64,000 nucleotides of DNA from Flaccisagitta enflata (Eukaryota): positions 46,438,001-46,502,000 of the forward strand of contig OZ231126.1 of NCBI GenBank assembly GCA_965153355.1, in the 5' to 3' direction. Made by a program: the position numbers and the translations under genes. The notes under the pieces were generated by a model. The model saw only the letters and a list, made by a program, of their open reading frames with translations, had not been told where the DNA came from and searched no databases. Each line of letters opens with the position of its first letter. Position 1 is the first letter of the stretch. This document shows positions 2,676 through 51,600 of the stretch, one piece after another.

Positions 2676-8630
<5,955 letters not shown>

Positions 8631-9447: not shown

Positions 9448-9795
9448 TACGTCTGTCAGGGTGCCCAGAAAAGCCAAAATTGAAGTTTGCCTGGCAAAAA
9501 TATCTTTCCTTTGCAAAAATGCTTTCAAATGAGCCATTGCACAACCTTCAAATCAAGTGGGAACCATCTTTAGGGTGAGGTTAAAGTTTACATTGAATTA
9601 TCATTGAAATCTATATCTCTATCATGCAAATTCTGTCTCTCTCATAAAAATCTATGGAAACTTCAGAGTCACCCTAAAGATGGTTCTCAATTGATTTGAA
9701 AGTTGCGCAATAGCTCATTTGAAAGCATTTTTGCAAAGGAAAAAGAATTTTAGCGAAGTTCAATTTCGGCTTTTCTGAGCACTCTGACAGACGTA
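9448..9795. mobile_element. Foldback MITE, TAC...GTA termini, 8-bp target site duplication
   Basis: Long inverted arms (tacgtctgtcagggtgcccagaaaagcc / ggcttttctgagcactctgacagacgta); ATCTCGAC repeated directly at 9440-9447 and 9796-9803. Confidence 0.8.
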
Positions 9796-12700
9796 ATCTC
9801 GACCGGGCGATTTTGATAATATTTTTGGCGTTTTTTTTAGGAAAATTCGCATGAATTTTTTCTCATGATTTACATGTAGGATCAATAAAGAAGTGTATTG
9901 ATGTTTGTTTGAGCATGCAAATACAAGAAAACATGTTTAAGAGCAAAGCTGCTCATCTGTGAGGGTGTTTTTCAGTATTCTAGCTCAACTAGCTTCTTTA
10001 GCTCAGTCTTTTTTTTTCTGATTCTAAATGGGATAAACGACTAAATGTTTTGATACATGTTTAAGCATGTAAGTACAAGAAATGATGTCAGTGAGCATAG
10101 CTGCTCATCTGTGAGGGTGTTTTTAAGTATTCTTGCTCATTCAGCTCATTTAGCTCATTTTTTGGGGGGGGAATGTAATGGAAATTACGACCAGGATGCA
10201 CCCTTACTTGCAAAGGTGCCGGATACACGGCCACCAGCGGACGGGTGGGCAGGGGCGGAAATGCGCGTTTTCCCACTTTTCAACTCGAGCGTGACGGACC
10301 AAGCGGACCAACTTTGGACAACGGACCAACGGACAAACGGACGGACGGACAAAGCCTCTTATGCAGAGTTGCGTGTCACCTTTAAAATGCCACGGAGTCT
10401 CGAAAAACAAACAAACAAGAAACAAAAAACAAAACAAAGACAGCATAATAACATTTTCGCGAGACCGTGACGATTGAATCCGCAGCCACGGCCGTGCGGT
10501 GGTCGTACGTTGAAAGGCGCCTTGGAGTCATCGTGAAGCAACTGCGCTTTAACTTTCCTCGTCGTGGTTTCGAGCAAGAGGAGGAGGAAGGTGCGGAAGA
10601 AGAAGAGGAGAAGAAGAAGAGAAGGAAAAGCGAAAAAGAAAAAGAAAAAGAAAAAGAAAAAGAAAGAGAAGTGGGTAAAAAAGTGCGTAGATGAATATAC
10701 ATTGGAGTAACGCTATTCGCTAGAGCGCAACCGCCATTAAGGCTTGTCTGCCTATTAGGCCCACATGTTAACAAGGGGCGACTGGTTTTGTTCACCTTCC
10801 CTACTTCCTACTGGCCCTGCTTTCTTCCTATGAATGCCTCGCGGCTCAAAACCTTAACTCGAGTGCTTTGAGGATACATGTTTGGCCTGAAAACTGCGTT
10901 TCACGTTCACGTTCAATCATTGGGCAGGGGCAGTGATGCAAATATCGAATGCGACCGACGTAACAAATGATTATCTTAGCAACACAATTTGTGTGATGAT
11001 ATAGTTTTTTCCAAGCACTCAGAAAGTTTTTGGCTCTAAATTAGAGATGTAAACATGGCTTCATTTGTGTGAGAGGCATAGGAAAAAGTCATACCATGAG
11101 TTTTAGGATACTCCAAAAAAATAATTTTGAAAAAATTGTTTTAGCATGATCAAATCTGACAAGGCCGGATAGACGGCCACCAGTTGTGGATGGGTGGGCA
11201 GGGGGCGGAAATACGCGTTTTCCCACTTTTCGACTCGTGCTTACGGATCAACGGACCGACGGACGGATGGACAGACAAAGCCTCTCATAGAGTTGCGTGT
11301 CCGCAACTAAAAAACATATCTGTGACAACGTAAAGGTAACATTTTTTTTTGAAAAAAATTGTGTGATAAATCTTAGATATGATACAGGTTATTACGCCAC
11401 AACTAGGCCTGTTTTAGTGAAGCCGAGCAAAAAATAAAATCCCCAAACGATGAGGAATTCAAATCTGTTTTCATTTTTATTCTACAATCACGCCCTGAGA
11501 CGCAATGAGCAAATGAAACAGTCTATGCCATCAATATAGAAATTAAAGAAAGATCCATCAAAAAATTTTCATTTTACTGAAAAATTGAAGTTGCCAGCTT
11601 AAAAAGTGACAGAAAGGTTGAGAAACATGTTCATGAATTTATATTTGTTTTATAACATTAATCGGTAAAACCCTAGCATGTGATACATCAAATGAAAGCT
11701 GAGACAATTTTTTTGCTAATGGTGATAAGATATTACACATTTAAGTAGATACGATTAAGCCGTTATCATCCCTACTCTAATAGAGTATGATAGAGAATAT
11801 TGATTTTTTGCATTGCCGTATTCTATTTCCATTCGTTGTCGCACGTTTTATTCCACGTTGTTGTTGATTCGTTGTGCTTGATTTCAGTTATGTACTTTTT
11901 TACGGCATTTCTGACCAAAAAATGACACTGAACGATGACAGCTCCACTCAATTTTTGGCATGAGTATGTTCCAGAGCCAAACCATTAGTATTTGACCCTT
12001 TGCCACCTATTACAGCTGTTTCAACATTCACGACTTAAAAAATAAAATAGCCATTTCTGATGCTACAGTAAAAATGAAACACTGAATGATGACGGCTCCA
12101 TTCAATTTTTGCGAAGCATGTTCAGAGGCAAACCATTGAAGTATTTGACCCTTTGCCACCTATTACAGCTGCTTTAAAACAATAGCAGCCTAGAAAAGTG
12201 CTGAAAATAGCCATTTCCCCGGCATTTTACGGCAAAAATGACGCTGAATGATGACGATTTCCACTTGATGCTGGTATGAGTATATCTCAGAGCCACACAG
12301 TTACTGTATGACCGTTTGCCAACCATAACAACTTTTTTTTAACATCATTAACCTGAAAAACTGGCAGAAATGCCATTATTACAGAATTTTACGGCATTTT
12401 ACGGCACTGCGTGGTCAATTCTTTACCGAATGTGCTCTATAACTTTTTTTGACTTCTATGCAATACATATGATTGGTTTTAGGCAAAAAATTGTGATATG
12501 TGTGACTTTTGCCAAATTGCTTAGGGGTGACATACATAAGACACTGTGCCTTAGGGCTGGGATTTCAGCTTAAAGGCTAGGATTTGTGCCTCAGTGCTGG
12601 ATTCTAAGCTTGAGGCTGGGAATGAAGCTTTGAGGCAAGAATTTGTGCTTGAGGCTAGGATTTAGGTTGGGAATTGGGCCTCGGGGGTGAATTTTGTGCT

Positions 12701-13225
12701 TGAAGCTGGGATTTGGGCCTCAAGGCTGGGATTTGGGCCTCACGGCTGGGAATTGAGCCTTAAGGTTGGAATATGAGCTTTGAAGGGGGTGGACTGATGG
12801 AGGAGAAGGAGAAATTCGCCCATGTGTGAAAGCATAGGTCTTGACCCCTTCGAAGCCGCTGCCACAAACCATGCAACTTGTGTTTTTTTTTCTTCTAAAA
12901 TTGACTTTGAGTTGAGAAGCGGATTTCTAAATCAATAAGCAAACTGTGATCGTCCAGAGTCCTCGTTTCCCTAGCTAGTCTTGACTTGCAATTCATTTTA
13001 CTCAAAAACGTTTTATTTGCGAGGATAAGCAAATAAAAATGCAATTGCAGTGACCAGTAGAACTGAAGGCTGATAAACTCTCCCTCGCTTGTTTTCTCCT
13101 CCTCCACGGCCACCCCACTGACACATGTTTTTCCATGCTGTGGTGATATGTAGTGACCATTTGGTAATTGACATCCATAGAGCTTAAGGGCAACAACCAC
13201 TAACTCGTGATACGACCCCATCTTA

Positions 13226-13803
13226 CCGGGTCATCAATCTCGACTGGGAAAAAATGTTAAGCTTTTGCTCTCAGCTGCTTAGTCTCACTGGTCTGGAATT
13301 TGTTTACTTATATAGTAATATATTTAACGTTTTTTGTGTTAAAATTTCATTAGTCGGAGTTAAATACTTTGTCCACAACATCAATTTAAAGAAAAACAAG
13401 CATTTTCGGATATAAATAAATCATCAAAACTGTTTTTCTTTGATTGGCTCTTAATTCTCGCTAGATTAAGCAGCAAGGGTCAGATTTGTCTCAGTTAAAG
13501 ATATTTTTATGAATTCTAAAAAAACATCTTTTATTGTAGACTGTTTATGCATTTGTAGCTCAAACTGATTACAAACAAGGGAAAATAGTTTTGATAAAAA
13601 AGGTTAAATTGAGCTTCAGACACAAATACTTGTTTTACTTCAAATTGATGTTGTTGGCAAAACATTTGACACAGACCAATGAAATTTTGACACAAAAAAC
13701 GTCAAACATAGCACTATATAGAAAAATTAGTTCCAGGTCATTAAAAAGAAGCATCTGAGAGCAAAAGCTTAATACTTTTTCCCAGTCGAGATTGATGACC
13801 CGG
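13226..13803. mobile_element. Tc1/mariner-type (TA TSD) MITE
   Basis: TA-ccgggtcatcaatctcgactgggaaaaa ... tttttcccagtcgagattgatgacccgg-TA with ~170-bp diverged arms; second copy at 28741-29318. Confidence 0.8.
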
Positions 13804-14609
13804 TACTGTCTTACTATCTGATAATGATGAGCTGCCGGAGCGAAGCAGTCGCCAGGTCCCACTCAAGGCTCCAATTGTCTCGTCTCCTGAGACTGATCTG
13901 TCGCTTTTACCAACCTTAACATCGCAACCCCTTCTTAAATGAGTGTTTATAAATCTTATCCCATTACTCACTGTACATATGCCAACACTTATGTGACATA
14001 AGTGACATAGGCCTACACGGACACACCCGGCCTTCCTACTGCCTAAACTAGGTTGACTGTTGTTGCGGCAGGAGGGGTAACCGCCTTTTTACTCTATTCG
14101 AATTGAGCAATGGTCATGCTGACCAACAGAGCCCCTGACAGAGATGCGCGTGTCCGCAACTAAAAATATATCTCTCTCCCGCGTCGTTCTTGCACTAGAT
14201 CGCCCTTCGTTGGCCGTAGTGTAGGGCTCTTCATATAGGTTTCGCTCAAACAGGAGCGCCATCGACTTAGGCATTATCTTGATTTACACGCACGAATCAA
14301 TTAAGGTTGTAAAATCATATGTCGCCAAGGAGATATCGATTGGAGGACTCAGTCGAGTTCTTTCGTTTCCATGCAACAGAACAGATTCAAGAGGGTCTCG
14401 GCGCCGAATAAAATGCCTTCGTTCCTTTCTGTCTCCGTCTCTCTTTCTGTCTCTCTTTCTGTCTCTCTTTCTGTCTCTTTCTGTCTCTCTTTCTGTCTCT
14501 CTTTCTGTCTCTCTTTCTGTCTCTCTTTCTGTCTCTCTTTCTGTCTCTCTTTCTGTCTCTCTTTCTATCTCTCTTTCTGTCTCTCTTTCTGTCTCTCTTT
14601 CTGTCTGTC

Positions 14610-14795
<186 letters not shown>

Positions 14796-14958
14796 TCTGA
14801 CTCTCTCTCTCTCTCTCTCTCTCTCGCTCTCTCTCTCTCCTCTTTACCTGTCTCCATCTCTCTCTCTTCCTCTCTACCTGTCTGTTTGTTTGTTTGTGTG
14901 TGTGTCTCTGTCTGTGTGTGTGTGTGTCTCTGTGTGTGTGTGTGTGTGTGTGTGTGTC

Positions 14959-15054
<96 letters not shown>

Positions 15055-16373
15055 ATTCCCTCCAAGGAACGTGACCAAAGGAAATGTCCATGGAATCATC
15101 ATGACAGCGGTAGAAGAAAAGGAAACCCTGGTTCTTTCTTTCGTCATTTAACTGATGCAGGTGGATTGATCCCTTTATGTTTAATAAATAAATTAATATC
15201 AGAGACGAGGAACAAATTTATGTGTGACCAGACCCAGTTGTTGTCATCCTCTTTTTAAGTCATTACTGATACCCTGCTACCTATCTTCGCCCCTGGAAGT
15301 TCTAGAAAGTTGAAACCATACTAGCGGAATTTATCTGTATCTTGAGAATTAGCTTCTGTTTGAAATATTCTGACCTTGTTGATTGCATGAATAGCTTTCC
15401 CTCATGTGCCTCTCTATCCAATACCATAAACTTAAAGAGATAAAGAGAATGGAGCCAAGTCTTGAGAAGAGGAAATAAAATCTCTATGAGTCACTTGGCT
15501 GCAAAAATGTTCGAGTAACGAGGAATGATTTCATTTTAGATTGCTAATGGTTATAGACAGGTCTATGAACTCATCAATAAATGTGGAAGTTTGGGTTAAT
15601 GAGTCAATGAGGTTAAAAAAACCTCTATAACTCAACACGTAGGATCAGTTCGGGGACAGGGCGAGGAAAGGATGGAATTTGGCGCCATGACAATGATGCA
15701 TGACGTAATTGAGGTAGAAAAAAAAGTTCTAGACGTCGCATGGCGGATGTCGCATGACAACGAAAATCGGAGAGCAACGACCGAGATGGGACTAAAAGAG
15801 TTATTGGGCAGACGACGGATGGTCGCCTGGGGCAAAACTTAGCCAGCGAAAGCGTTTATCTTCATGGCACCTCGCGAAGGTGTTGCTTAGACGCGTGGCT
15901 AAGTAAAAGAGAGTTTAATCCCTCCCCCATCGAATGAATTTGGATAGACCTGGCAGGTGGCCAGTATCAAGTGAGGGAATATGTTGTGACATGACGCGAT
16001 CGTTACAAGATAGAATGATACAAGTGACGCGGGGTCACAATATCGTTGCGGACGGGTGGGAGGAGGGATATAACTCTAATCTATAATCTCCCCCACTTCC
16101 TGCTCACGCACAGACACACTCCGTCTCAACTGCAACAGCATAAATGCGCGTTTTCACACTTCGACCCGCTCACACCCTCATCATGAACGGACCGACCGAC
16201 AGATGGGCAAGTCTCTTAGAGTTGTGTGTCCAATCGATTACTTGCTATTATTTCGAAAATCTGTCTCCGACCTATTCGCAATATGCCGGACCATGCTCCT
16301 CACGAATTTCATACTAATTTATTGCTGAGTTGACAGATTCAACCAACGAATAAAGTTGGTAATGGGGCGGATG

Positions 16374-16615
16374 CACCTTGATCTGGGGGCTGAGAAAAAC
16401 CCGAGATGAATCTAGCGTGTTTCAATAGCTTAATTTACATGAAAAGCATACTTCTAGTTAACCCAGTGAGATGAAATTTTAACTGAAGCTCTGCAAAACC
16501 ATTGGCTTTCTTCATGTAAAATTTCATCCCACTGGGGCAACTAGAAGTATGCTTTTCATGTAATTTAAGCAATTGAGATTCATCTCGGGTTTTTCTCAGC
16601 CCCCAGATCAAGGTG
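16374..16615. mobile_element. Transib-like MITE (CAC termini, 5-bp TSD) with RSS-like TIRs
   Basis: Near-palindromic 242-bp element, caccttgatctgggggctgagaaaaacccgagatgaatct at both ends, GGATG duplicated at 16369-16373 and 16616-16620. Confidence 0.85.
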
Positions 16616-18005
16616 GGATGATAAGATTAGAAAACGGACGTTGATGCTGGCAAAAATACTGAGAAAAAGCTGAACCAACTTAGCCAACCACCGTGATTCC
16701 TTAAGTCAGCGTATAGCAATAACAGATGTCAAGGGACTTGTAATTTTTTTTTACGATATGCAAATTTTCATAATTACCATTATAATTTAAGAAAAGAATA
16801 CTAATAAATTGAAATTCTATATCTATAAACAAATTTCCATTGCTCTTAGATCATGTTTAGCGGGATGTAACCGTACAGAGACGCTAAATTCCTTTAACTA
16901 CATTTCAAGTAAAAGTTCTTCACTAGTCACAAACCTAGGGACTCATTACTCTTTAAAAAAAGTTGGTCAACGTGGAATGATTTTGTTTTTATTTGGTTGC
17001 GCGGAGGCATAATTTTTATATACAGAGGGAAAAACAATCAGTCGTCAAAATCTCGGAGAGTTTGCTTGTCAGGCGCAACTACTCTTTCATCAGCCGATTG
17101 TGGCGATAATGATTCTCCACTCCGCGCATAGGGAGGGAGGGGTGGGACAATAACTCAATTCAATATTTTGGGGGAATGGGACAGGAGGATAACAACCAAT
17201 TGGACAATTTCCGCTATGATTTTTAGACCTAGAATGTGATCGACCGAGGTTGCGCCATTCCGAGAGGGGGGGAGGGGAAAAAAGAAAATACTGAATGTGA
17301 AAAAGCCGTTTGATTTTTACAAATGAGTCGCATTGCACGGCAACGCGTGGGGGAAACGATGAGAAGAGAGGGAAAAATGACGAAATGATGTAAGACATAG
17401 TGACCGGGGGTGGTAAAAAATAAAAATTATCACTTGAATTTTTTTTCCAAAATCATAAGCGTATGGGTGAAGTAGATTTCTTCCGCTTTACCTCAAATCG
17501 AATCACATTGGAGAAACACGATAAGTCGAATCATGGACACTACTTTTATTTCCCCAGATGTCAACCGCGACGTCGATACTGAGTCACGAGACGCGCCGGT
17601 GTAACATGAACATGTCATTACAATTGACCCAATCCCCAACTTCCCAACCTCCACGTCAAGTTACGCCCAAGGTAGATCATTCCCAATCCACCGATGGCTC
17701 AGTCCATAGAACCCATTTGAAGGCGAACGTGCACACATTTCTACCCCTCCCCAAAAATCCGTAAAGATTGGAAACGACGTTCCAAAGAGTTGCGATGCGT
17801 CCCGTAGCTGGTCCCGAGTTCCGACTTCTCTCCAAGCTGCGACGAATGAGGGCGATGAGGAATGATGATGCTGATGAGAAATGATGATGATGACGGCGAT
17901 GATGAGTCACTTAGTTTCGCGATGAAAAAGATGGATGAAGCGACGAGTGGTTTTTGAATGTCAAAAGTTTTCACCAGTGACCGTGAACGCACATTTCCGG
18001 CACTC

Positions 18006-18122
18006 TCAAGGCTTCGCCTTATTCTGGACGGGGAGATAAAGTTTGAATTCTGCCGGAAGTTCGTCTTCGGAGTAAAGACGATCGGAGAAGTAGACGCGAC
18101 GAATCCGACAATTGGCGTGGAT
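18006..18122 (-). pseudogene. CFAP20: Duplicated, orphan copy of CFAP20 terminal coding exon
   Basis: Intact acceptor (cag) and [38 protein letters not shown], same as 33437-33553; upstream CFAP20 exons are not duplicated. Confidence 0.85.
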
Positions 18123-18782
18123 CTGTGAAAGAGTGAAGGGGGGGGGAAGAGGAGGAAAGGTAATTCAGTTGCTTGGTATGTAAAATATATTAAGTAGTTG
18201 GTAACCGCGCGATGAAAGGTACAGAAAAACCCGTCAAAAGAGGTGTGGAGGGACCAAAATTATAGCACGTCTCCCTACAACCCACATCAAATATTCCATT
18301 CTTTTACTCAAAATAGCTGATTATACCTTGGGTGAATAAAAAATTTCCTTATGGCGATTTTTGTAATTCCACCAAGGACGTTTCCAAATCTTTATTTTTT
18401 TGCAATTTTGAGGGATTTTTAGATACACTCTTTTGTTTGACTAAAAACCTTGTTTATGAGAACATTGAGGCTCAGATGTGGAAAAAAGTAAGAACAATCA
18501 TAAGAACATTGTCAGCCTCAAAAAGGGAAAATATAAGAACATTCATTCTTTATCTGCTCTAGGAAATGCAATAATCAAAAAGAATTGCAGAAGGGAGACA
18601 GCTTAATTGTTATACATAGATGACTTCAATCACTTTTACATCATAATTTGATTTGTTAATGATTACTATTTTGATTCTCATATCTTAAATTGACAATCAT
18701 GGTTAAGTAACCAGATAAAAGAACATTTTTGTACCAATAGCGGTGGCTAATCGCCGTAGGAAAAAAATCATAAATGCGTAAA

Positions 18783-18861
<79 letters not shown>

Positions 18862-18898
18862 TTAGACTCAAAAAATTGTGAAGAGTATGGGTCCGCGG

Positions 18899-19442
18899 GG
18901 TCGAACGGCGTTGTCTGGCGTTGTCGAACGGCGTTGTCGAACGGCGTTGTCAAGCGGCGTTGTCAACGGCGTTATCAAGCGGCGTTGTCAAACGGCGTTG
19001 TCAAACGGCGCTATCAAACGGCGTTGTCAAACGGCGTTGTCAAGCGGCGTTGTCAAGCGGCGTTGTCAAACGGCGTTGTCAACGGCGTTGTCAAACGGCG
19101 TTGTCAAACGGCGTTGTCAAAGCGTTATCAAGCAACGTTGTCAAACGGCGTTGTCAACGGCGTTGTCAAACGGCGTTGTCAAACGGCGTTGTCAAACGGC
19201 GTTGTCAACGGCGTTGTCAAACGGCGTTGTCAAACGGCGTTGTCAAACGGCGTTGTCAAACGGCGTTGTCAAACGGCGTTGTCAAACGGCGTTGTCAAAC
19301 GGCGTTGTCAAACGGCGTTGTCAAACGGCGTTGTCAAACGGCGTTGTCAAACGGCGTTGTCAAACGGCGTTGTCAAACGGCGTTGTCAAACGGCGTTGTC
19401 AAACGGCGTTGTCAAACGGCGTTGTCAAACGGCGTTGTCAAA
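18899..19442. repeat. 13-bp minisatellite (GGCGTTGTCAAAC)n, truncated copy
   Basis: Direct tandem units; produces the spurious [13 protein letters not shown] ORFs. Confidence 0.95.
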
Positions 19443-23376: not shown

Positions 23377-23915
23377 CAAAAATGGTCTTTTCATACCTCT
23401 TGGGGCGTATCCAGAGAGGTGTGATAATCCATACAATTAATTTTCATTTTTGGAAAAACTAGTCATGTAGCTAGTGTTACAATATCGTCGCGGATGAATG
23501 GGTAAGGACTTTCAAATTTCCCCCTCATCACCTCTTCAACAATTGTTTTTCCACTTTCAAACTCTTACTCACAAACCAACAGGTGACTGACTAACGGATG
23601 AACCAACGGACGGACAAAGCCTCTTATAGATTCGCGAATCCGCGACTAGAAACATGCAAGTTTGAAAATAGAATGGAATGGATCAGGTAGTAGGTGAATG
23701 AGATGATTTTGATTTAACGGACAGACAATAGTAAGGACTGGAGCATGGACAGATCTTCTCTCATAAAAATATTCAGGGACATATTTGAAAGTCGGAGGAG
23801 ATTGAGTCTTTTGTTTTCTGGCACATCAACGTGTTGGTTTTACGCATCTCACGAGTTCGACAACCGTCACCAAGAAGGGGTAATAAAATCCACTAAATCA
23901 GGTTTTCCTTAGAGC

Positions 23916-25425
23916 CTGTTTCTATAATCTCTTTTTTGCAAGATGGCGAAAAAGGTCAATTTCAAAATTGAGAAAATTTGACAAAATCATTCATAATCAG
24001 ATAGCTTATGTCAGCATAAACATGGTTAAAAAACTCAATTTTGTTACTGATCCTCGATTTTCATGTAAATTAGGCTGAAATGCAACAAATGATGATCGGA
24101 AATAAGCAAAAATTGAGTTGTTATAGTCAGCAAAACCCAAAAAATGTGAATATTTTACTAAATCACAGTTCAAGCATTCACTCAGACGTGATTCTGCTGA
24201 AAAAAAAAAATAGGATTTCAATTTTTTTGAAAATTCTCTATAAGCTGCTTTTTTGGCTGGTTGGGCCAGTTGGGAAAAATTTACTGAATCTTCTTGCAAC
24301 GATCAATTAAAGAGGACAATCTCTGAAAGAACCACTGTGCAAAATTTCAGCCAAATCGTACAAATATTTCAGAACTTATGCCATTTTTAAAATTTTTGGG
24401 TGGTAGGCTGGTTGGGCTGGTTGGGTAAGTTAGATGTGTCCGAGATGCACCAAAAGCTCTGATCGTAATTGTTTCAGTACAACATTGATCCATGCAAAAA
24501 ATCTTCAGTCTTTCTATAAGGGTTTCAAAGATATGGGCATTTCATGATTTTTTTTAATTACCATTTTGTTAGGATTGCATACATGCGCCGATAACAAAGA
24601 ATTAACTACAAAGACTCATCTTGAAGCGTGATTATTCTGCAACAATTTACCAACCAATCACATTCAAAATTTCATTGTGGCTGAATGCCCGGGAGTTAAG
24701 ACCTGAAATTTTCAGTGTAGATGCAAAATTTCATGCTCTTTCTCATAGTGTCATCCAAATTTTCATCAGCAGTTTCACAATGGCGTGACAATGACCGACT
24801 TAGTGCGTGACATGAGCATGACAGAAGAGCTGGGGGGGTGTGCGGAATAATCACGCTTGAAGAAAAGAAAAGTGTTATTACGCGGGCTTGGATAGTCACA
24901 GTGACATGAAATTTGGAGCATATGTCCGTCAAGTAGTCCTCTATTAGATAGAAACCTGAGAAGTAATTAACTTTAAGAATTAATAGTGTTTTTAAAAAAT
25001 ATAATCGGCATACTCAGGTTTTGCTGTGAAATAGAGAAAAAATTAGGAGGATCAATTTTTGATGATAATACAATATTTGAGCAACTTAGCATTTGCGCAG
25101 TTGGATGAAATTTTTTGCACATCACATCGGATTGATGATAACTGATTAAAAGCTGAGAAATGATCAGATAATCTATATTTTTATAGGTTTTGCTTGTTAT
25201 TTGCTTGCCCGGACAAAATCCGGACATGTCGATGTGGCCATTTTGACCTTATTTTTAGGCCCCCTAGGGGTAGGGGTGGTCACAAAAAATGGTTTGGCAA
25301 GGTAATCCAGGTAGTTAGGCAGGTCATCAAACTATAAAAACTTGTCATTATGCAATACACATAGCAGTAACACTGTTAACGTGGTGGTAAGTCAGGTTCT
25401 TGCGTCAAAAAGAGATTGTGACATT
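23916..25425 (+). mobile_element. ~1.5 kb non-autonomous DNA transposon, copy 1
   Basis: Colinear diverged copy at 49996-51479; imperfect TIR core aatctctttttg / caaaaagagattg; no transposase ORF. Confidence 0.75.
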
Positions 25426-25497: not shown

Positions 25498-33195
<7,698 letters not shown>

Positions 33196-33436
33196 AGATT
33201 GGAAACGACGTTCCAAAGAGTTGCGATGCGTCCCGTAGCTGGTCCCGAGTTCCGACTTCTCTCCAAGCTGCGACGAATGAGGGCGATGAGGAATGATGAT
33301 GCTGATGAGAAATGATGATGATGACGGCGATGATGAGTCACTTAGTTTCGCGATGAAAAAGATGGATGAAGCGACGAGTGGTTTTTGAATGTCAAAAGTT
33401 TTCACCAGTGACCGTGAACGCACATTTCCGGCACTC

Positions 33437-34213
33437 TCAAGGCTTCGCCTTATTCTGGACGGGGAGATAAAGTTTGAATTCTGCCGGAAGTTCGTCTTCG
33501 GAGTAAAGACGATCGGAGAAGTAGACGCGACGAATCCGACAATTGGCGTGGATCTGTGAAAGAGTGAAGGGGGGGGGAAGAGGAGGAAAGGTAATTCAGT
33601 TGCTTGGTATGTAAAATATATTAAGTAGTTGGTAACCGCGCGATGAAAGGTACAGAAAAACCCGTCAAAAGAGGTGTGGAGGGACCAAAATTATAGCACG
33701 TCTCCCTACAACCCACATCAAATATTCCATTCTTTTACTCAAAATAGCTGATTATACCTTGGGTGAATAAAAAATTTCCTTATGGCGATTTTTGTAATTC
33801 CACCAAGGACGTTTCCAAATCTTTATTTTTTTGCAATTTTGAGGGATTTTTAGATACACTCTTTTGTTTGACTAAAAACCTTGTTTATGAGAACATTGAG
33901 GCTCAGATGTGGAAAAAAGTAAGAACAATCATAAGAACATTGTCAGCCTCAAAAAGGGAAAATATAAGAACATTCATTCTTTATCTGCTCTAGGAAATGC
34001 AATAATCAAAAAGAATTGCAGAAGGGAGACAGCTTAATTGTTATACATAGATGACTTCAATCACTTTTACATCATAATTTGATTTGTTCATGATTACTAT
34101 TTTGATTCTCATATCTTAAATTGACAATCATGGTTAAGTAACCAGATAAAAGAACATTTTTGTACCAATAGCGGTGGCTAATCGCCGTAGGAAAAAAATC
34201 ATAAATGCGTAAA

Positions 34214-34295
<82 letters not shown>

Positions 34296-37200
34296 TAGAC
34301 TTAGACTCAAAAATCTTGAAAGAGTATGGGTCCGCGACTGGGGTCGAACGGCGTTGTCGAACGGCGTTGTCGAACGGCGTTGTCGAACGGCGTTGTCGAA
34401 CGGCGTTGTCGAACGGCGTTGTCGAACGGCGTTGTCAAACGGCGTTGTCAAACGGCGTTGTCAAACGGCGTTGTCAAACGGCGTTGTCAAACGGCGTTGT
34501 CAAACGGCGTTGTCAAACGGCGTTGTCAAACGGCGTTGTCAAACGGCGTTGTCAAACGGCGTTGTCAAACGGCGTTGTCAAACGGCGTTGTCAAACGGCG
34601 TTGTCAAACGGGTTGTCAAACGGCGTTGTCAAACGGCGTTGTCAAACGGCGTTGTCAAACGGCGTTGTCAAACGGCGTTGTCAGCGGCGTTGTCAACGGC
34701 GTTGTCAAACGGCGTTGTCAAACGGCGTTGTCAAACGGCGTTAATCAAACGGCGTTGTCAAACGCGTTGTCAAACGGCGTTGTCACACGGCGTTCCCAAA
34801 CGGCGTTGTCAAACGGCGTTGTCAAACGGCGTTGTCAAACGGCGTTGTCAAACGGCGTTGTCAAACGGCGTTGTCAAACGGCGTTGTCAAACGGCGTTGT
34901 CAAACGGCGTTGTCAAACGGCGTTGTCAAACGGCGTTGTCAAACGGCGTTGTCAAACGGCGTTGTCAAGCGGCGTTGTCAAACGGCGTTGTCAAGCGGCG
35001 TTGTCATGCGGCGTTGTCAAACGGCGTTGTCAAACGGCGTTGTCAAACGGCGTTGTCAAACGGCGTTGTCAAACGGCGTTGTCAAACGGCGTTGTCAAAC
35101 GGCGTTGTCAAACGGCGTTGTCAAACGGCGTTGTCAAACGGCGTTGTCAAACGGCGTTGTCAAACGGCGTTGTCAAACGGCGTTGTCAAACGGCGTTGTC
35201 AAACGGCGTTGTCAAACGGCGTTGTCAAACGGCGTTGTCAAACGGCGTTGTCAAACGGCGTTGTCGAACAGCGTTGTCAAACGGCGTTGTCGAACAGCGT
35301 TGTCGAACGGCATTGTGAAATGGTGTTGTCGAAGTGTTGTCAAACGCCGTTGTCAAATACCGTTGTCAAATGGTCTTGTCAAATAGCGGTCAAATAAGGG
35401 TTGAGAGAAAAGCTGCTTTGTTCATATACATAGGTTGAGCCATTTAATTTTGAGTCTACATACCAAATTTTAACCAAATCGATTGAGAATTGTTCAAGTT
35501 ATGCACATTTTTCACTTTTAAGGTGGTAGGCTGGTAGGCTGGTTGGGTGGTAGGCTGGTTAGCATGCTAAAATCTTTACAAATCAAATACATAAGTTGAG
35601 TCCTTCCATTTAGAGAAAACATACCAAGTTTACACCTAATCAGTTGAAAAACGCCAAAGTTATGAACTTTTTTCACTTTAAGGCTGGTAGGCTAGTTGGG
35701 TGGTAGGCCGGTTTGGCCTGTTAGCATGCTAAAATCTTCACGATTCAAATACTTATATTGAGTCCTATTCAGAGACTACATACCAAGTTTCAACCAAATC
35801 GGTTGAAAAATCCAGAAGTTATGCACATTTTTCACTATTCGGCTGGTAGGCTGGTTGGGTGGTAGGCCGGTTTGGCCGGTTAGCATGCTAAAATCTTTAC
35901 AATTCAAATACATATGTTGAGTCCTTCCATTTAAAGACTACATACCAAATTTTAACCAAATCGGTTGAAAAATGCAGAAGTTATGCACGTTTCTCACTTT
36001 TTGGCTGGTAGGCTGGTTGGGTGGTAGGCCGGTTTGGCCGGTTAGCATGCTAAAATCTTTACAATTCAAATACATATGTTGAGTCCTTCCATTTAGAGAC
36101 TACATACCAAGTTTCAACCAAATCAGTTGAAAAATGCAGAAGTTATGCACGTTTTTCACTTTTTGGCTGGTAGGCTGGTTGGGTGGTAGGCCGGTTTGGC
36201 CGGTTAGCATGCTAAAATCTTTACAATTCAAATACATATGTTGAGTCCTTCCATTTAGAGACTACATACCAAGTTTCAACCAAATCGGTTGAAAAATGCC
36301 AAAGTTATGCACATTTTTCACTTTTAGGCTGGTAGGCTGGTTGGGCCGGTTGGGTGGGTCGGATCATAACATACGCATAGGCCGCAAAGCGGCTTACCCT
36401 AGTACAACTTCCCTCCAAATATGAAGCAAATCGGTCAAGGCGTTCAAAAGTTAGCCCATTTTTAAAAGTGTGGACGACAACAACAACAACGACGACGACG
36501 ACGACACCCACCCGCCTCGAATTATAGTCCGCGTCCGCGGACAAAAATTTTCATAGGTCAGTCAGTAGCTCAATCTTTTGCATGGACCTGCTCAATGCTT
36601 TCAATATTGCAAGTTTCAAATTTCAAGGTTCTGGCTCAAATACTTGAGATGTTATGAACATTTGTTTGAACCATATCAAGCTGAAACAATTCCAGGAGAA
36701 TCTTTAAACTTTCTTTTAAAATATGGCCGACACAAAAATTTTCTAAGTTTTTTGTAAAAAAGTGAAATTACAAGATTTTGGATCTAGGCGAATCAAGCAA
36801 TTTCCTATCAATTGCACCCCACTTTTTTTTCAAAATAATATCTTCATTAATGGCTTTTTTGGGGGCCCCTAGGGGCCCCTAAGAAGTTCAAAATTTTGGT
36901 CAATGAGATGAACAGAGTTATGTGCATACGCCAAGGTATCTTTCAGGACCAAATTAGTTCAGGACCAGATTAGTTCAAGCTAGAGCCCATGCCTTTACTA
37001 CCCTCTTAGAAATAAGAACACTGAGCCTCAGAAAAAAAAAACATGTTGTTATAAAAAGAAATGAGTGTAGCCCTAATTTTAGCATAAAACGGTCCATTAC
37101 AGCGATTTAAGGAGGAGTCTCAAACAAAACCTGAATTAAAGAATTAGTCTTCACCCATGTGCTAAACCACCACTCAAAATGAACGAATAGATATATTGAT

Positions 37201-38768
37201 GTAGGCTGGGGGGGGGGGGGGCTAAAACTTTTGGTCCCTCCACTCTTCTTACATTCCATACATAATTGACGGGTAAGTTGGGGTAACACTTGAAGAAATC
37301 ATCCTGTCTATGACTAGTCGTCATGTCTGTCCGTTAAAGAGTAGGCCAATGTAATTATATCTATCATTTCATTAAATGAGCAACAATCATTCAAACAAGT
37401 TCTTGATCAATCACCTGTTCATTCATTGGTAACTTCTTTCATACATTTATCAATTAATTCATTGATCATTCCTTATTTCTGTTCATTTCCTCAGAGAATC
37501 TATTTCGGCTTTCATTTGGTCTTGTTGCATTACCAGGGTGGCACAGGCGAACTTCAAGCAATTACACATCCAACAAATTATATTTTGCAAGATTTTGGTG
37601 GGTCACGTGCAACTCATGATCAGAGTCGGAGGATTTGACGATACCTGAACTCTGAGCGTTTCGATGTAGTTGGTTCCGTAGGCCCTCCTCGTGAAATCGG
37701 AGAGGTTGAATTGAATTTGATTCCAGCCATCGTCGAGTCTCATCGGCATCGTGCATATGAAGGGCTTCACCCGCGTCGTCGATTGGTAATTGCTCGCTCG
37801 GAACCGACGCCTCACGTTCTTGTCGTCTAATACCTACAAGATCAATAAGCGAGAGTGGGGGATTACAAGAGAGGGTGAAGCGGGGACGTAAGGAGGGAAG
37901 AACGAGAGATGCAGAAATGAGGAGAGAGGAGAGATGACGAAGAAGAAAGAGCGAGAGAAAAACAAGAAGAGGGGAGGAAAGGGGAGGATGGGGGGGGGGG
38001 GGGGGAAGAGGTGATGAGGAGAGAAAACAAAAAAAAAGAATAGGTGTGAATTGGTGCTCGTCATTGTGACCTACAAGGGAAACTCTTGTGAACGCACTTG
38101 TATCGGTAAGCAGTCTTTATAAAATCAGGGCACATACCTGGACTTCGAAGGTGAAATATTTCTTAAGATTTTTGATGATCATGACGAGGAAAGGCAGCTT
38201 GATACCCAACGTCTTCTTTGGATCCGCCGGACACGTGATGTAAGTCGTGCTGTGGAAAGTCAATGGGGAGTTCATTATCATTGATGGGCAATGATGCAGC
38301 AGTGATTCATTATGTTTTTATTCATCCGTTTATTGAATCACAGTCAAGGTGGAAGTCTCGATCAATAATTTGACATAAATCTTTTTTTAAAATATTGTAT
38401 TCTTGCCAAGCCAAGACAATTTTGTAAGTGCTCACCTGACGTTGGTTCCAACAATCTCAAGAACGAGGGACTGGATGTCGTTGTCGGTGATACGTTTTAT
38501 GTGACCATTGCGCACCTAAACGGAACGAAAAGACATAAAATCGCAGAATAATGCCACGAAAAAAAAATAATGAGAATATAAATCACTGATCGCGTCTGAG
38601 CGTAATCGAAATTTGCGAGTGAAAGGAAAACACGAGATCACGCGACAAACAACGCTCGCCATCGCAATAACGGCATTCTATTACCTTTTTGTCCCATATT
38701 TGCAGAGGTTTACTGCCGATGCTGTAGAGGATGGATAAAAATCCACTTTGAAACGTGTTTTTGAACAT
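33437..38768 (-). CDS. CFAP20: Cilia- and flagella-associated protein 20 (BUG22/C16orf80), complete, 193 aa
   Basis: Five GT-AG exons: 38768-38685 ([28 protein letters not shown]), 38515-38436, 38249-38138, 37833-37645 ([44 protein letters not shown]...), 33553-33437 ([31 protein letters not shown]). Phases agree and the sequence is the highly conserved CFAP20. Confidence 0.98.
34344..35390. repeat. 13-bp minisatellite (GGCGTTGTCAAAC)n, about 80 units
   Basis: Homogeneous centre, GTCGAAC variants at the left edge, degenerate right edge. Confidence 0.96.
35440..36360. repeat. 162-bp tandem repeat, about 6 units
   Basis: ccaaatc(g/a)gttgaaaaatgc recurs at 35956, 36118, 36280. Confidence 0.9.
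36543..37003 (+). mobile_element. Dispersed ~480-bp repeat, interrupted copy (5' stub at 34296-34313)
   Basis: Uninterrupted copy at about 57116-57600 begins tagacttagactcgaaaattttcctaggtcag. Confidence 0.75.
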
Positions 38769-39434
38769 TTTTAAAGTCTTTGTTGGATTTAAGATTGCAA
38801 AGTTTGTGACCAAAATGAAGGCCGTTGGAACGAGGAGGTTCCTTGCCGACCGCGCCGAGTGTTAGTCCAAATTACATATGTTTCTAGGAATAGACGGTTT
38901 CTGTATTCTCGAGGACCTCGTCGCTAAGGGACTTTTACTCTCTAGTATCGCTCCGCATGATATCTTTTTACGAACCTATTTTCTACGATGTTAACAACGA
39001 AAACGTTATCGATTCACGTAGTATCTGCGAGAAGAGGTGAAATCAATGAGTATTCGATATATAGTCATGAGGAACGATTATATATCAATTAAGGATCTAC
39101 TTTGTTCGCGGAGGAATACAGTCGAATTCTTGGTTCTCAATACGACAAATTGAACCTCGCCTTGCCATCCTCTCTGAGCAGCTCGGTTGCCATGGTAGGG
39201 GCTTTCAAGCCAAGCCGCCAAAAACCAACCAAGTGGAACCGGAAGAGGGAGTCGCCATGACGTCATCAGTGCCCATGGATGACATGTACGTGATGTCCAG
39301 AATCTCAAATTGAATGGGAACCAGTGATATTGTAAAATGCTTCACAGATATGGCACTTTACATTAATGACTAACTATTTCTACTCGCCAATAACAAAAGA
39401 AACTAAGATTTATCTAAGAGCTCATGGCACAAAA
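38769..39434. promoter_or_regulatory. Candidate bidirectional promoter between CFAP20 and the Domeless-like gene
   Basis: 666 repeat-free bp between divergent ATGs; X-box-like GTCGCTAAGGGAC (38920-38932) and GTTGCCATGGTAG (39186-39198), CRE TGACGTCA (39258-39265), ETS-like CCGGAAG (39239-39245), STAT-like TTCTAGGAA (38882-38890). Confidence 0.55.
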
Positions 39435-47155
<7,721 letters not shown>

Positions 47156-48663: not shown

Positions 48664-51600
48664 CTGTCCTTCCAGTGCAAAGAAACAAATCATGTTCAAA
48701 ATTTGTTCCTCCACGGGATTCATGTTCAACGGCTCTACAAGGCAGCTTTGGTTAAGTCTTTCTTTATGCAAAAACCCACCCTTGATTATCTCCGTCATTT
48801 TCGCCGTAAAGTTTTCTAACCTCGACAAATCTGATCTATAACGTTTTCTTTTTTTGTTCTCTTCAGCTGAACATTTGCATGAGCAGCATAGGCGAAACCC
48901 AGATCCTATCTGAGCGTATATATTGTAACCTATAGGTCGTGCTGTTTATATGCTATCAAGAAATCCTTAACACCACCATGAAATTTCATTGCGGAAATTA
49001 TGATTAACAGTTCAACAATAAATCATGTCCAAACAAAAAGCGTTGCAACTAACATAAAGAATTATTAGGTTACACCGTCTTTGGATCGGACTGTGAAATG
49101 CAAAACCTTTATAGCTCCTAAATCAATAGGAAAAAAGTCATGAAATTTTCAGTGAGTATTGGTAACATGTGACGGTTTTTGCATGTCAAAGCTCAGATCA
49201 TGATATAGAAAAGGTGAGGGAAAAACAAAATATTGAAAGAAAACCCATTTTTGATTAAGATCAATTTTTCCCCATTTCCTTAGAAAGGAGATGTCCTTAT
49301 CTGCTTGAAATTGCCTTGCATTTCAACAAAAACTCTAGGATTTATTTTCGATGACAGGTGTTAACTTATGTATTATCTATTTGCTGCATATTCTGAGAAA
49401 AAAACAGCACCTTCTGAAAAAAATCAGGTAAAAAAAACCATTTTGTTTAAAAAATGGATGTTCATGCAATATTTTGTTTTCCCCTCACCTTTTCTATTTT
49501 ATGATCTGAGCTTTGACATGCAAAAACCGTCACATGTTACCAATATTCACTGAAAATTTCATGACTTTTTTCCTAGTGGTTTAGGAGCTATAAAGGTTTT
49601 GCATTTCACAGTCCGATCCGAAGACGGTGTATTTCGGAATAAGTCAGCTCATGGATACCGTAGCAGACAGAATGAAGAAGTCATGTGAAAGTTATTTCTC
49701 AGTCAGTCAGCTTCCTGTTTGGTACACTTGTACAAGCATCCGTCGATCTTTTGTTTTTAAGACTTTTTAAGCGTTTTTTTTAAATTAGGGTTAGGGGTGG
49801 GTTTAGGGTTAGGATTGGGGATAGTTTTAGAGTTAGGGTTAGGGACAAGGTTTGCTTTAGGGCTAAGGGTTGGCTGGGTTTTATGTATTACGACCCGAAG
49901 CTATTCGAATTTAATTCGCTCTGGCGGAGGATTCTGAAAGAAAAACAAAATCGTGCCGAGACTCAATCAGCAGCTCCTATTGTTTTTACAGTAGGCTGTT
50001 TCTACAATCTCCTTTTTGAGAGATGGCCAAATAGGTCAATTTCAAAATTGAGAAAATTTGTCAAAAACATTCATAATCAGATAGCTCATGTCAATATGAA
50101 CATGGTTCAAAAACTGAATTTTGTTACTGATCCTTGATTTTCATGTAAATTAGGCTGAAATGCAACAAATAATGATCGAAAATAAGCAAAAATTGAGTTG
50201 TTAAAGTCCGCAAAACCAAAAAAATGGGAATATTTTACTAAATTACAGTTCAAGAATTCAATCAGACCCGATTCTGCTGAAAAAAAATTGAGATTTCAAT
50301 TTTTTTTGAAAATTCTCTATAAGCAGCTTTTTTGGCTGGTTGGGCCAGTTGGCAAAAATTTACCAATCTTTCGCAACGAAACTAAGGCATTCTCTGAAAG
50401 AACTACTGTGCAAAATTTTTAAATTGGACAATTATTTTAGAAGTCATGCCGTTTTTTTTTTATTTTTGAGTGGTAGGCTGGTTGGCTAAGGTTGGTTAGA
50501 TGTGTCCCAGATGCACCAAATGCTCGTAATAGTTTCAGTACAGTATTGATCCATGCAAAAAATCTTTTGTCTCTCTCAAAGGGTTTCCAAGATATGGGCA
50601 TTTCCTGATTTTTTTGGTTTACCATTTTGCTGTAAGTGCATACATGCGCCGATAACAAAGAATTAACTATGAAGATTCATCTTGAAGCGTGATTATTCCG
50701 CAACAATTTACTGACCAATCACATTGAAAATTTCATTATGGCTGAATGCCGGGGAGTTAAGACCTGAACTTTTCAGTGTATTTGCAAAATTTCATCCTCT
50801 TTCTCATCGTGTTATCCAAATTTCCATCATCAGTTTCACAATGGCGTGACAGTGACAGACTTAAAGCGTGACATGAGCGTGACAGAAGAGCTGGGGTTGT
50901 GTGCAGAATAATCACGCTTGAAGAAAAGTGTCATTACGCGGGATTGGGGTGTCACAGTGGCATGAAATTTGGAGCGTATGTCCTTCAAGTAGTCCTCTAT
51001 TAGATAGAAACCTGAAAAGTGATTAACTTTGAGAATTTATAGTGTTTTAAAAAAAGATATCGGCATACTCAGATTTTGCCATGAAATAGCAAAAAAATTA
51101 GAAGGATCAAAATTTGATGATAATACAATATTTGAACAAATTAGCATTTGCGCAGTAGGATGAAATTTTTTGTACATTACATCGGAATGATGATAACTGA
51201 TTAAAAGCTGAGAAATGATCAGTTAATCTATTTTTGATAGGTTTTGCTTGTTATTTGCTTGTCCGGACAAAATCCGGACATGCCAATGTGGCCAATTTGA
51301 CCTAATTTTTACTACCCCTAGGGGTAGGGGTAGTCACAAAAAATGGTTTGGCAAGGTAATCCAGGTAGTTAGGAAGGTCATCCGACTATAAAAACTTGTC
51401 ACAATGCAATAGACATTGCGGTAACACTGTTAACGTGGTGGTGAGTCGGGTTCTCTCGTCAAAAAGAGATTGTGACATTCCACAGTGGGATTTGCGTGCT
51501 CAGAGCGAGCGAGGAAGCTTACATCTGCGTGTCTCTCTATATACGGCTTTTATACGCCATTGATCAACTAATTTTTCAACCAAAATGGATTCCTCCCTCA

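What the first reader, a model, noticed from the sequence alone, without database searches (positions are those of the whole stretch)
16369..16620. Transib-like MITE whose two ends resemble V(D)J 12-RSS signals
Seen: each end reads CACCTTG, a 12-nt spacer (ATCTGGGGGCTG), then AGAAAAACC; left 16374-16401, right 16588-16615; exact 5-bp TSD GGATG. Established: the 12-RSS consensus is CACAGTG-12-ACAAAAACC, and RAG and Transib transposases use CAC ends and make 5-bp TSDs. The match is 5/7 in the heptamer (CAC intact), 8/9 in the nonamer, with exact spacer length. Inference: a symmetric 12/12 RSS-like non-autonomous element implying a recently active Transib or RAG-like transposase in this genome, possibly with nonamer recognition. 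No transposase is in the window; the second copy (31805-32046) comes from the segmental duplication, not independent transposition.
Basis: partly seen in the sequence, partly recalled or inferred. Interest (0 to 1): 0.75.

Follow-up and report, generated by a model that had tools for sequence, protein, structure and literature searches.

The report
High-copy foldback MITE with RSS-like ends
This is a short, non-coding "jumping DNA" element present in roughly a thousand or more copies in a marine animal genome; its ends look like those of Transib transposons, the relatives of the vertebrate antibody-gene recombination signals, a resemblance already known for that transposon group.

Summary
A 242-bp element lies at 16374-16615. 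Its ends read CACCTTG, 12 nt, then AGAAAAACC, and it is flanked by an exact 5-bp duplication, GGATG. The second copy, at 31805-32046, lies inside a 7.5-kb segmental duplication.

New here:
- The perfect inverted repeat is 39 bp, and the whole element is a near-palindrome.
- It belongs to a very high-copy family whose borders fall at the CAC/GTG ends. Summed contig depth is about 1,000-1,900 times that of the flanks.
- The family also occurs in marine metagenome runs.
- One contig carries the locus without the element, but as an imprecise 265-bp gap.

Transib/RAG-like membership rests on a single independent insertion. No genome is held, no other copies could be fetched, and no transposase was found, so the partner and the family-wide duplication length are untested.

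Within the family the terminal 37-44 bp do not vary at all. The nonamer-like block is therefore no better conserved than the spacer. One variant end does keep the heptamer-12-nonamer layout and loses the next 21 nt.

RSS-like Transib ends, including 12-type ends on non-autonomous families, were described in 2005 (PMC1131882). Verdict: a real, young MITE, probably of Transib type, and a new member of a known kind. Moderate interest.

The parts
16369..16373 (.). left target-site duplication GGATG
   Evidence: Read directly. It is identical to 16616-16620. The next outward base differs, so the duplication is exactly 5 bp.
16374..16615 (.). 242-bp foldback MITE (whole element)
   Evidence: As single-stranded DNA it forms an almost complete hairpin: -103.4 kcal/mol, z = -22.7, with 0 of 200 shuffles folding as well. 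Summed contig depth rises from about 238 to 257,000-528,000 between the bins starting at 16372 and 16614.
16374..16412 (+). left terminal inverted repeat, 39 bp perfect. Heptamer-like CACCTTG at 16374-16380, 12-nt spacer at 16381-16392, nonamer-like AGAAAAACC at 16393-16401, then CGAGATGAATC.
   Evidence: the first 39 columns of the alignment between the element and its reverse complement are identical; no variant at 5% or more of depth in 16374-16410.
16577..16615 (-). right terminal inverted repeat, 39 bp. Nonamer-like block at 16588-16596, spacer at 16597-16608, heptamer-like at 16609-16615, read on the minus strand.
   Evidence: no variant at 5% or more of depth in 16572-16615.
16616..16620 (.). 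right target-site duplication GGATG
16438..16564 (.). inner inverted module (about 16438-16488 and 16519-16564) around a variable centre
   Evidence: table 7: many contigs match only from 16438/16442 onward, only up to 16485/16488, or only from 16519 onward. The centre and the sub-terminal parts therefore differ between subfamilies or related repeats.
31800..32051 (.). second copy (element 31805-32046) with the same GGATG duplication. A paralogue made by segmental duplication, not a separate insertion.
   Evidence: The flanks are co-linear. There are 2 differences within the element (16400, 16571) and 3 over the 642 bp compared.
11897..19442 (.). segmental duplication, copy 1 (partner 27403-34891)
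   Evidence: 97.18% identity over 7,589 columns.

Best explanation
The element at 16374-16615 is one copy of a young, very abundant family of foldback MITEs. A MITE is a non-coding cut-and-paste DNA transposon that depends on a transposase encoded elsewhere in the genome.

The most likely mobilising enzyme is a Transib or RAG1-like (RAGL) DDE transposase. Such an enzyme would bind the terminal 28 bp or so, nick at the CAC border and release the element through hairpin formation on the flanks. It would then re-insert the element across a 5-bp staggered cut, which gives the GGATG duplication.

Shown here:
- the anatomy of the element;
- family abundance, with borders that fall at the CAC/GTG ends;
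- near-identity of this copy to the family majority;
- stronger conservation of the ends than of the interior;
- an element-less form of the locus.

Inferred:
- the superfamily;
- the cleavage chemistry;
- any role of the A-rich nonamer-like block 12 nt from the heptamer as a second protein contact.
For: (1) Structure. The element has a 39-bp perfect TIR with CAC..GTG ends and an exact 5-bp duplication. It has no coding capacity and forms a whole-element hairpin.

(2) Family.
- At 80% likeness or more, 1,779 contigs were laid in X1 and 1,404 in X2. In X1, 705 are at least 99% alike, 493 are 95-99%, 292 are 90-95% and 289 are under 90%.
- Summed depth in the end bins is 1,071-1,418 times the flank depth in X1 and 1,819-1,862 times in X2. 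This is a rough order of magnitude, not a copy count.
- Depth steps up and down in the bins that hold 16374 and 16615.
- Loose ends at 16374 and 16615 have low agreement (0.44-0.47), meaning many different flanks.

(3) Youth. This copy differs from the near-unanimous family letter only at 16503 and 16571.

(4) Ends more conserved than interior. All 19 within-element positions with variants at 5% or more lie in 16411-16571. None lies in the 81 terminal positions (p about 4e-4 if variants were spread evenly).

(5) A variant end. Marine-metagenome runs X3 and X4 (one contig each, same study) give TT|CACCTAG ATCTAGGGGCTG AAAAAAACC joined directly to position 16423 (table 7).
- The 28-bp heptamer-12-nonamer unit is kept at 25 of 28 positions.
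- The following 21 nt are absent.
- This points to about 28 bp as the unit that matters.

(6) Transib signature from the literature (PMC1131882, passages). 5-bp duplications were described as unique to Transib among eukaryotic DNA transposons. The same passages describe CAC heptamer-like ends, an A-rich nonamer-like block, GC-rich targets, and RSS12-like ends in several families including non-autonomous ones. Here the 10 nt upstream of the insertion point are 80% GC in a window region of about 41-42% GC (n=1).

(7) An element-less form of the locus. A 486-nt X2 contig joins 16354 to 16620 (table 5). This is compatible with excision followed by end resection.
Against: - Only one independent insertion could be read, so '5 bp' is n=1. 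A 4-bp duplication plus one chance base (probability 1/4), or 3 bp plus two (1/16), is not excluded.
- The wider CMCT clade (EnSpm/CACTA, Mirage, Chapaev, Transib) shares CA..TG ends and makes 2-5 bp duplications (PMC12730594, passages).
- No transposase is in the window and no genome is held, so the partner is unknown.
- The heptamer matches the Transib/RSS consensus beyond CAC only at TG.
- Positions 8-10 are ATC, not the A-rich TR2 block of RAGL-B ends (PMC7204232, passages).
- Within the family, spacer and nonamer are equally invariant. There is no bipartite conservation pattern.
- The three changes in the variant end fall one each in heptamer, spacer and nonamer.
- The element-less contig lacks 265 bp, not the 247 bp expected for a clean empty site. 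It could be an ordinary deletion of an unstable palindrome, and it differs from the window at further positions, so it may be another haplotype or paralogue.
- All family evidence comes from contigs, which collapse identical copies and drop rare variants.
Confidence: 0.68

Rival explanations
1. It is a MITE of another lineage in the CACTA/Mirage/Chapaev group. These also have CAC ends, and the true target duplication would be 3-4 bp with the fifth base (or the fourth and fifth) matching by chance. The nonamer-like block would then be coincidental.
For: Members of the CMCT clade share CA..TG termini and generate 2-5 bp duplications (PMC12730594, passages). Only one independent insertion is available. 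The heptamer is not a good match beyond CAC..TG.
Against: The duplication is exactly 5 bp. The chance of extension is 1/4 from 4 bp and 1/16 from 3 bp. An 8-of-9 match to the RSS nonamer exactly 12 nt after the heptamer has a per-position background of 3.75e-4 in this window. Both features are what Transib ends are described as having.
Confidence: 0.17
2. It is a Transib-type MITE, but the RSS-like heptamer-12-nonamer reading has no functional meaning. The transposase would read only the terminal 15 bp or so (or the whole long TIR), and the A-run sits at 12 nt by accident.
For: There is no preferential conservation of the nonamer over the spacer: 16374-16410 is entirely invariant. Most Transib families are described as having symmetric ends with little or no nonamer similarity, and invertebrate RAGL enzymes are proposed to rely on the terminal 15-17 bp or so (PMC8289069 and PMC7204232, passages).
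Against: The variant end seen in X3 and X4 keeps the spacer at exactly 12 nt and keeps the A-run plus CC. It discards the 21 nt that follow position 28. All five positions called essential in RSSs (heptamer 1-3, nonamer 5-6; PMC1131882) are present.
Confidence: 0.45
3. It is not a mobile element. It would be a local inverted duplication or palindrome, or a pair of genuine or cryptic V(D)J recombination signals.
For: The near-perfect hairpin. The RSS-like letters.
Against: Thousands of contigs from two individuals and from marine metagenomes match the element with sharp borders at its ends and with unrelated flanks. The flanks carry no ORF of 90 aa or more with a family match. The two signals face inward as transposon ends.
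Confidence: 0.02

Closest known systems
Non-autonomous Transib families with RSS-like ends (TransibN1-N3_AG, TransibN1_SP and others; Kapitonov and Jurka 2005, PMC1131882)
   Same: No coding capacity, CAC-heptamer-like termini, an A-rich nonamer-like block at an RSS-type distance, a 5-bp target duplication and a GC-rich target.
   Different: The published consensus is CACAATG-23-AAAAAAATC, and the 12-type ends described are paired with a 23-type end. Here both ends are 12-type, because the element is a palindrome. The heptamer is CACCTTG, and the nonamer-like block is closer to the vertebrate consensus (8 of 9). The transposase link is untested.
RAGL transposons (amphioxus ProtoRAG; RAGL-B of molluscs and nemerteans; RAGL-A of Ptychodera flava)
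   Same: CAC ends and a 5-bp duplication. PflRAGL-A ends carry a heptamer plus an AT-rich nonamer-like block.
   Different: There is no A-rich TR2 at positions 8-10 (here ATC). There is no length asymmetry between the ends and no RAG1L/RAG2L gene in the window. RAGL-B ends lack a nonamer-like block.
Vertebrate 12-RSS
   Same: Heptamer CAC, a 12-nt spacer, nonamer 8 of 9 with A at positions 5-6.
   Different: It is the terminus of a repeat present in roughly a thousand or more copies, not a signal beside a V, D or J segment. Heptamer positions 4-5 differ. Both ends are 12-type, which the 12/23 rule disfavours.
Foldback MITEs in general
   Same: Under 300 bp, arms that pair over nearly the full length, high copy number, and sub-families that share ends but differ in the centre.
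   Different: Nothing beyond the particular end sequence.

Membership tests
MITE (non-autonomous cut-and-paste DNA transposon) | Short, non-coding, with terminal inverted repeats, a flanking target duplication and many copies with different flanks | tested here: met
   242 bp, 39-bp perfect TIR and GGATG duplication. 1,779 contigs laid in X1 and 1,404 in X2. Loose ends at the borders have low agreement.
Transib superfamily (non-autonomous member) | 5-bp target-site duplication | tested here: met
   Exact GGATG on both sides, not extendable. However, this is only one independent insertion, because the second copy is a paralogue.
Transib superfamily (non-autonomous member) | 5-bp duplication in the bulk of family copies | not testable with these tools
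   No genome is held. 0 hits in metagenome, viral and prokaryote-genome contig scans. Read laying returns no flank pairs.
Transib superfamily (non-autonomous member) | Termini 5'-CAC...GTG-3' with a heptamer-like CACNNTG | tested here: met
   CACCTTG / CAAGGTG. The consensus CACAATG is matched at 5 of 7 positions.
Transib superfamily (non-autonomous member) | A-rich nonamer-like block 12+/-1 or 23+/-1 nt from the heptamer | tested here: met
   AGAAAAACC after exactly 12 nt at both ends. The background for such a match is 3.75e-4 per position.
Transib superfamily (non-autonomous member) | An autonomous partner with the same ends that encodes a Transib transposase | not testable with these tools
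   No transposase family among 83 window ORFs. No genome.
Transib superfamily (non-autonomous member) | Bipartite conservation: heptamer and nonamer conserved, spacer variable | tested here: inconclusive
   Within the family the whole of 16374-16410 and 16572-16615 is invariant at the 5% level. One diverged end has one change each in heptamer, spacer and nonamer.
RAGL (RAG1L-RAG2L) transposon-derived element | A-rich TR2 block directly after the heptamer (positions 8-10) | tested here: not met
   Positions 8-10 are ATC. The feature is taken from PMC7204232 and the 2023 preprint.
CACTA / Mirage / Chapaev (CMC) | Target duplication of 2-4 bp with CAC ends | tested here: inconclusive
   The duplication reads as 5 bp. 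With n=1, a 4-bp duplication plus a chance base (1/4) cannot be excluded. The lengths for the single lineages are recalled.
Functional V(D)J recombination signal | Heptamer abuts a V, D or J coding segment, and the signal is paired 12 with 23 | tested here: not met
   The flanks carry no ORF of 90 aa or more with a family match. Both ends are 12-type. The sequence is a high-copy repeat.

The most novel reading that the evidence does not exclude
The family is mobilised by a currently active Transib or RAG1-like transposase of a marine planktonic animal. That enzyme would genuinely read a nonamer 12 nt from the heptamer through a nonamer-binding domain, like RAG1 and unlike the RAGL-B enzymes studied so far. 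It would work on symmetric 12/12 ends. This would be a natural, high-activity system in which the origin of nonamer recognition, and of the later 12/23 restriction, could be tested.
Probability: 0.15. Interest if true: 0.7.

Novelty: new member of a known kind. Interest (0 to 1): 0.38.

Why it matters
The ends of Transib and RAG-like transposons are the presumed ancestors of the V(D)J recombination signals. Which invertebrate transposases read a nonamer, and at what spacing, is still being worked out. Examples are the RAGL-A elements of acorn worms and ProtoRAG TR5.

A family of roughly a thousand or more near-identical copies has ends that keep a near-consensus nonamer at exactly 12 nt. This marks a genome in which an active partner enzyme is worth looking for.

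On the evidence obtainable here, however, it is an ordinary annotation: a young MITE of a superfamily whose RSS-like ends have been known since 2005.

Tried and rejected
- Exact and degenerate end patterns in metagenome contigs, viral contigs and genome contigs, and the inner module in viral contigs: 0 loci each. No independent copies, duplications or autonomous elements could be fetched.
- Earlier findings of the scan: nothing relevant. The only sequence hit shared 2 of 56 words with a bacterial island.
- Rfam over the whole window and tRNA search: 0 matches each.
- Weak BLAST hits of the element's interior cluster in the 1.5-kb repeat 23913-25425 / 49993-51479 (E of 0.015 or weaker). Not followed up; they could be chance or a shared module.
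- Looking for an uninterrupted paralogue of the insertion site in the window: only the duplicated copy, which also carries the element.
- Using the 1.5-kb repeat pair as an empty-site control for the 51481-53879 candidate failed. Both repeat copies simply end there.
- Taxon: an FN3/cytokine-receptor-like ORF (39336-40517) has relatives only in unnamed metagenome contigs at 63-73% identity. The Atlas rows are leads only. The phylum stays unknown beyond 'metazoan-like, marine'.
Their small word shares (0.05-0.13) are no evidence of anything. The 242-bp element alone makes up 11% of the 2,201-base query.
- A full-text search for the 19-nt end found 0 papers.
- No RIC score could be computed, because no model is available here.
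Full report
**What is there**

The sequence is exactly as reported. An element of 242 bp occupies 16374-16615. Its left end, and the reverse complement of its right end, both read CACCTTG, then ATCTGGGGGCTG (12 nt), then AGAAAAACC. GGATG stands directly outside both ends, at 16369-16373 and 16616-16620. The bases next to the ends (G and G) cannot pair, and the base before the left GGATG differs from the base before the right one. The inverted repeat therefore starts at CAC, and the duplication is exactly 5 bp.

The perfect terminal inverted repeat is 39 bp long (16374-16412 and 16577-16615). After a 9-nt indel the arms keep pairing almost to the centre. As single-stranded DNA the element folds into one hairpin of -103.4 kcal/mol. 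Shuffles average -23.3, giving z = -22.7. The 'symmetric 12/12' arrangement is thus a by-product of a foldback element whose two ends are copies of each other.

**Second copy**

31805-32046 has the same flanks and the same GGATG. It lies in a duplication, 11897-19442 = 27403-34891, that is 97.18% identical over 7,589 columns. Over 16174-16815 the two copies differ at three positions. One is 16400 C>A, in the left nonamer-like block of copy 2.

**Is it more than chance?**

- The 28-mer occurs four times in the window at up to 3 mismatches, and never in 100 shuffles.
- A scan for CAC..GTG inverted repeats (14 or more of 16) with identical 5-bp flanks found only this element. With flank lengths of 3, 6, 7, 8 or 9 it found nothing. 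With 2 and 4 it found two other elements each.
- A 9-mer matching ACAAAAACC at 8 or more of 9 positions occurs at 48 of 127,984 positions (3.75e-4), this element's own occurrences included. For six admissible offsets that is about 2e-3.
- Of 1,370 CAC sites, only this element's ends have such a block at 11-13 nt.
- The heptamer contributes little beyond CAC: 2 of the remaining 4 letters match.

The nonamer-like block is thus unlikely to be there by chance for one pre-chosen element. It was, however, noticed after the fact in a large scan.

**Family evidence**

No genome is held for this window. It is eukaryotic:
- microsatellites and satellites occur throughout;
- the only family matches are a CFA20 exon and repeat artefacts;
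- one ORF looks like an FN3/cytokine receptor.

Public runs that hold the locus were found, and four were laid on 16174-16815 at 80% likeness or more. X1 and X2 are organism A, study P1. X3 and X4 are marine metagenomes, study P2. All are contigs, so depth is a summed per-contig figure and not a copy number. The results:

(a) Abundance and borders.
- Flank depth is about 238-240 in X1 and 113 in X2.
- Depth over the element is 257,000-528,000 in X1 and 206,000-435,000 in X2.
- The end bins are 1,071-1,418 times the flank depth in X1 and 1,819-1,862 times in X2.
- The steps fall in the bins that contain 16374 and 16615.
- X1 gave 1,779 laid contigs (705 at 99% or more, 493 at 95-99%, 292 at 90-95%, 289 below 90%). 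X2 gave 1,404 (415/372/295/322). X3 gave 282 and X4 gave 97.

(b) Presence in seawater DNA. X3 and X4 have zero depth in the flanks but up to 14,834 and 2,181 over the element. The family, though not this locus, is present in seawater DNA of one further study.

(c) Different flanks. Loose ends at 16374 (before) and 16615 (behind) have consensus agreement of only 0.44-0.47, which means many different flanks.

(d) Conservation. All 19 within-element positions with variants at 5% or more of depth lie between 16411 and 16571.
- None lies in 16374-16410 or in 16572-16615.
- If variants fell evenly across the element, the probability of this would be about 4e-4.
- The ends are therefore under stronger constraint, or are more recently homogenised, than the interior.
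- Within the ends, heptamer, spacer, nonamer-like block and the next 9-16 nt are all equally invariant.

(e) Youth. This copy departs from a near-unanimous family letter only at 16503 and 16571. It is a young copy.

(f) Sub-families. Many contigs share only the inner module, starting at 16438/16442, stopping at 16485/16488, or starting at 16519. Sub-families or related repeats with other centres and other sub-terminal parts therefore exist.

(g) A variant end. One contig in each of X3 and X4 has, directly before position 16423, TT then CACCTAG ATCTAGGGGCTG AAAAAAACC.
- That end keeps the 7-12-9 layout at 25 of 28 letters, with one change in each part.
- It lacks the 21 nt that follow position 28 in the window's copy.
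- It is a single sequence, but it suggests that the first 28 bp are the conserved functional unit and that the 12-nt spacing is kept.

(h) An element-less form. One 486-nt X2 contig joins 16354 to 16620, a gap of 265 bp.
- A clean empty site would lack 247 bp. This one also lacks 19 nt of left flank and 4 nt of the right duplication, with one letter ambiguous.
- It differs from the window at six further letters.
- It shows that a version of the locus without the element exists. That fits excision by a hairpin-forming enzyme followed by resection.
- It fits a plain deletion of an unstable palindrome, or a different paralogue, equally well.

**What could not be obtained**

- Six scans of public contig collections with the end or inner sequences gave no locus.
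- No second independent insertion, no family-wide duplication length and no longer element with the same ends could be examined.
- None of 83 window ORFs of 90 aa or more matches a transposase family.

**Mechanism**

The best reading is a non-autonomous element moved in trans by a Transib or RAG1-like DDE transposase. The enzyme would bind the terminal 28 bp or so and nick at the CAC border. It would form hairpins on the flanks, excise the element and integrate it across a 5-bp stagger.

The anatomy, abundance, borders and end conservation are shown. The enzyme class and the chemistry are inferred from the published signature of the superfamily:
- 5-bp duplications, described as unique to Transib;
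- CAC heptamer-like ends;
- an A-rich nonamer-like block;
- GC-rich targets (PMC1131882, passages).

Here the 10 nt upstream of the insertion point are 80% GC, in a region of about 41-42% GC (n=1).

**Comparison with what is known**

Kapitonov and Jurka (2005; passages read) give the 38-bp Transib end consensus as CACAATG-23-AAAAAAATC. They report that several families, including the non-autonomous TransibN1-N3_AG, have an RSS12-like 5' end and an RSS23-like 3' end.

Later passages state the following:
- most Transib families have symmetric ends, with little nonamer similarity in Hztransib (PMC8289069);
- a review figure legend describes symmetric 20-22-bp spacers and 12/23-asymmetric families (PMC8355894);
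- RAGL-B ends have a heptamer plus an A-rich TR2 and no nonamer (PMC7204232);
- Ptychodera RAGL-A ends have heptamer, TR2, asymmetric spacer and nonamer, together with a GRPR/K nonamer-binding domain (bioRxiv 10.1101/2023.08.20.553239).

The present element fits the Transib description. It does not show the TR2 feature of RAGL ends, since positions 8-10 are ATC. What is somewhat unusual is a 12-type block at both ends, and a nonamer-like block closer to the vertebrate consensus (8 of 9) than to the Transib consensus. I read only passages of these papers and saw none of their supplements. Figure S4 and the Repbase entries behind them may hold similar 12-type MITEs.

**Rivals**

- The main rival for the superfamily is another lineage of the CACTA/Mirage/Chapaev/Transib clade. 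That clade shares CA..TG ends and makes 2-5-bp duplications (PMC12730594, passages). With n=1, a 4-bp duplication plus a chance base cannot be excluded.
- The main rival for the RSS reading is that the A-run has no separate function. The data neither support nor refute a bipartite recognition signal.
- A non-mobile palindrome or a true recombination signal is excluded by the family evidence.

**Verdict**

The element is a real, young, very abundant foldback MITE, probably of Transib type. It is a new member of a known kind.

The end sequence was not found in the searchable literature (0 papers for the 19-nt end), which is no evidence that the family is absent from repeat databases.

Interest is moderate. 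It would rise if the partner enzyme proved to carry a nonamer-binding domain and to need the block at 12 nt.

Noticed in passing
window 51476-53884: A weak second candidate of the same kind. A 2,399-bp stretch (51481-53879) starts CACAGTGGGAT and ends, in reverse complement, CACAATGGGAT (12 of 16 letters shared). It is flanked by CATTC on both sides. The interior has no coding potential and is full of AAG repeats, and there is no nonamer-like block. About 0.1 such pairs are expected by chance by my own rough estimate. It abuts the end of the 1.5-kb repeat, so no empty-site control was possible.
   Followed up: partly
window 16354-16620 (run X2): A 486-nt contig from a second individual or haplotype carries this locus without the element. 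The gap is 265 bp (element, 19 nt of left flank and 4 nt of the right duplication), not a clean 247-bp empty site.
   Followed up: partly
window 11897-19442 and 27403-34891: A 7.5-kb segmental duplication at 97.2% identity overall, but 99.5% around the MITE. The 13-bp tandem array at its end differs in size between the copies: 18917-19442 has about 41 units and 34343-35383 about 80 units.
   Followed up: partly
window 13224-13805 (= 28739-29320), 9515-9732, 43502-44668, 49073-49629, 58795-58951: Several other foldback or MITE-like inverted-repeat elements with other ends. One example is 49073-49629, with CACCGTCTT ends and TA flanks. The genome seems rich in such elements.
   Followed up: no
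window 23913-25425 and 49993-51479: A 1.5-kb dispersed repeat at 88% identity. 11 of the 21 weak BLAST hits of the MITE interior fall inside its two copies, which may point to a shared inner module.
   Followed up: no
window 26845-27909 and 35421-36345: Satellite arrays with units of about 160-163 bp. There are also many 20-22-bp minisatellites with related units, for example at 4021-4218, 12705-12769, 26076-26352, 56518-56797 and 61334-61663.
   Followed up: no
window 38586-38861 (-) and 39336-40517 (+): A CFA20-domain exon (E = 5e-8). Next to it is a 394-codon open frame that resembles FN3/cytokine-receptor proteins. Its only sequence relatives (63-73% identity) are on unnamed metagenome contigs.
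   Followed up: partly
window 49785-49853 and 63403-63494: Short interstitial arrays of degenerate TTAGGG-like units.
   Followed up: no
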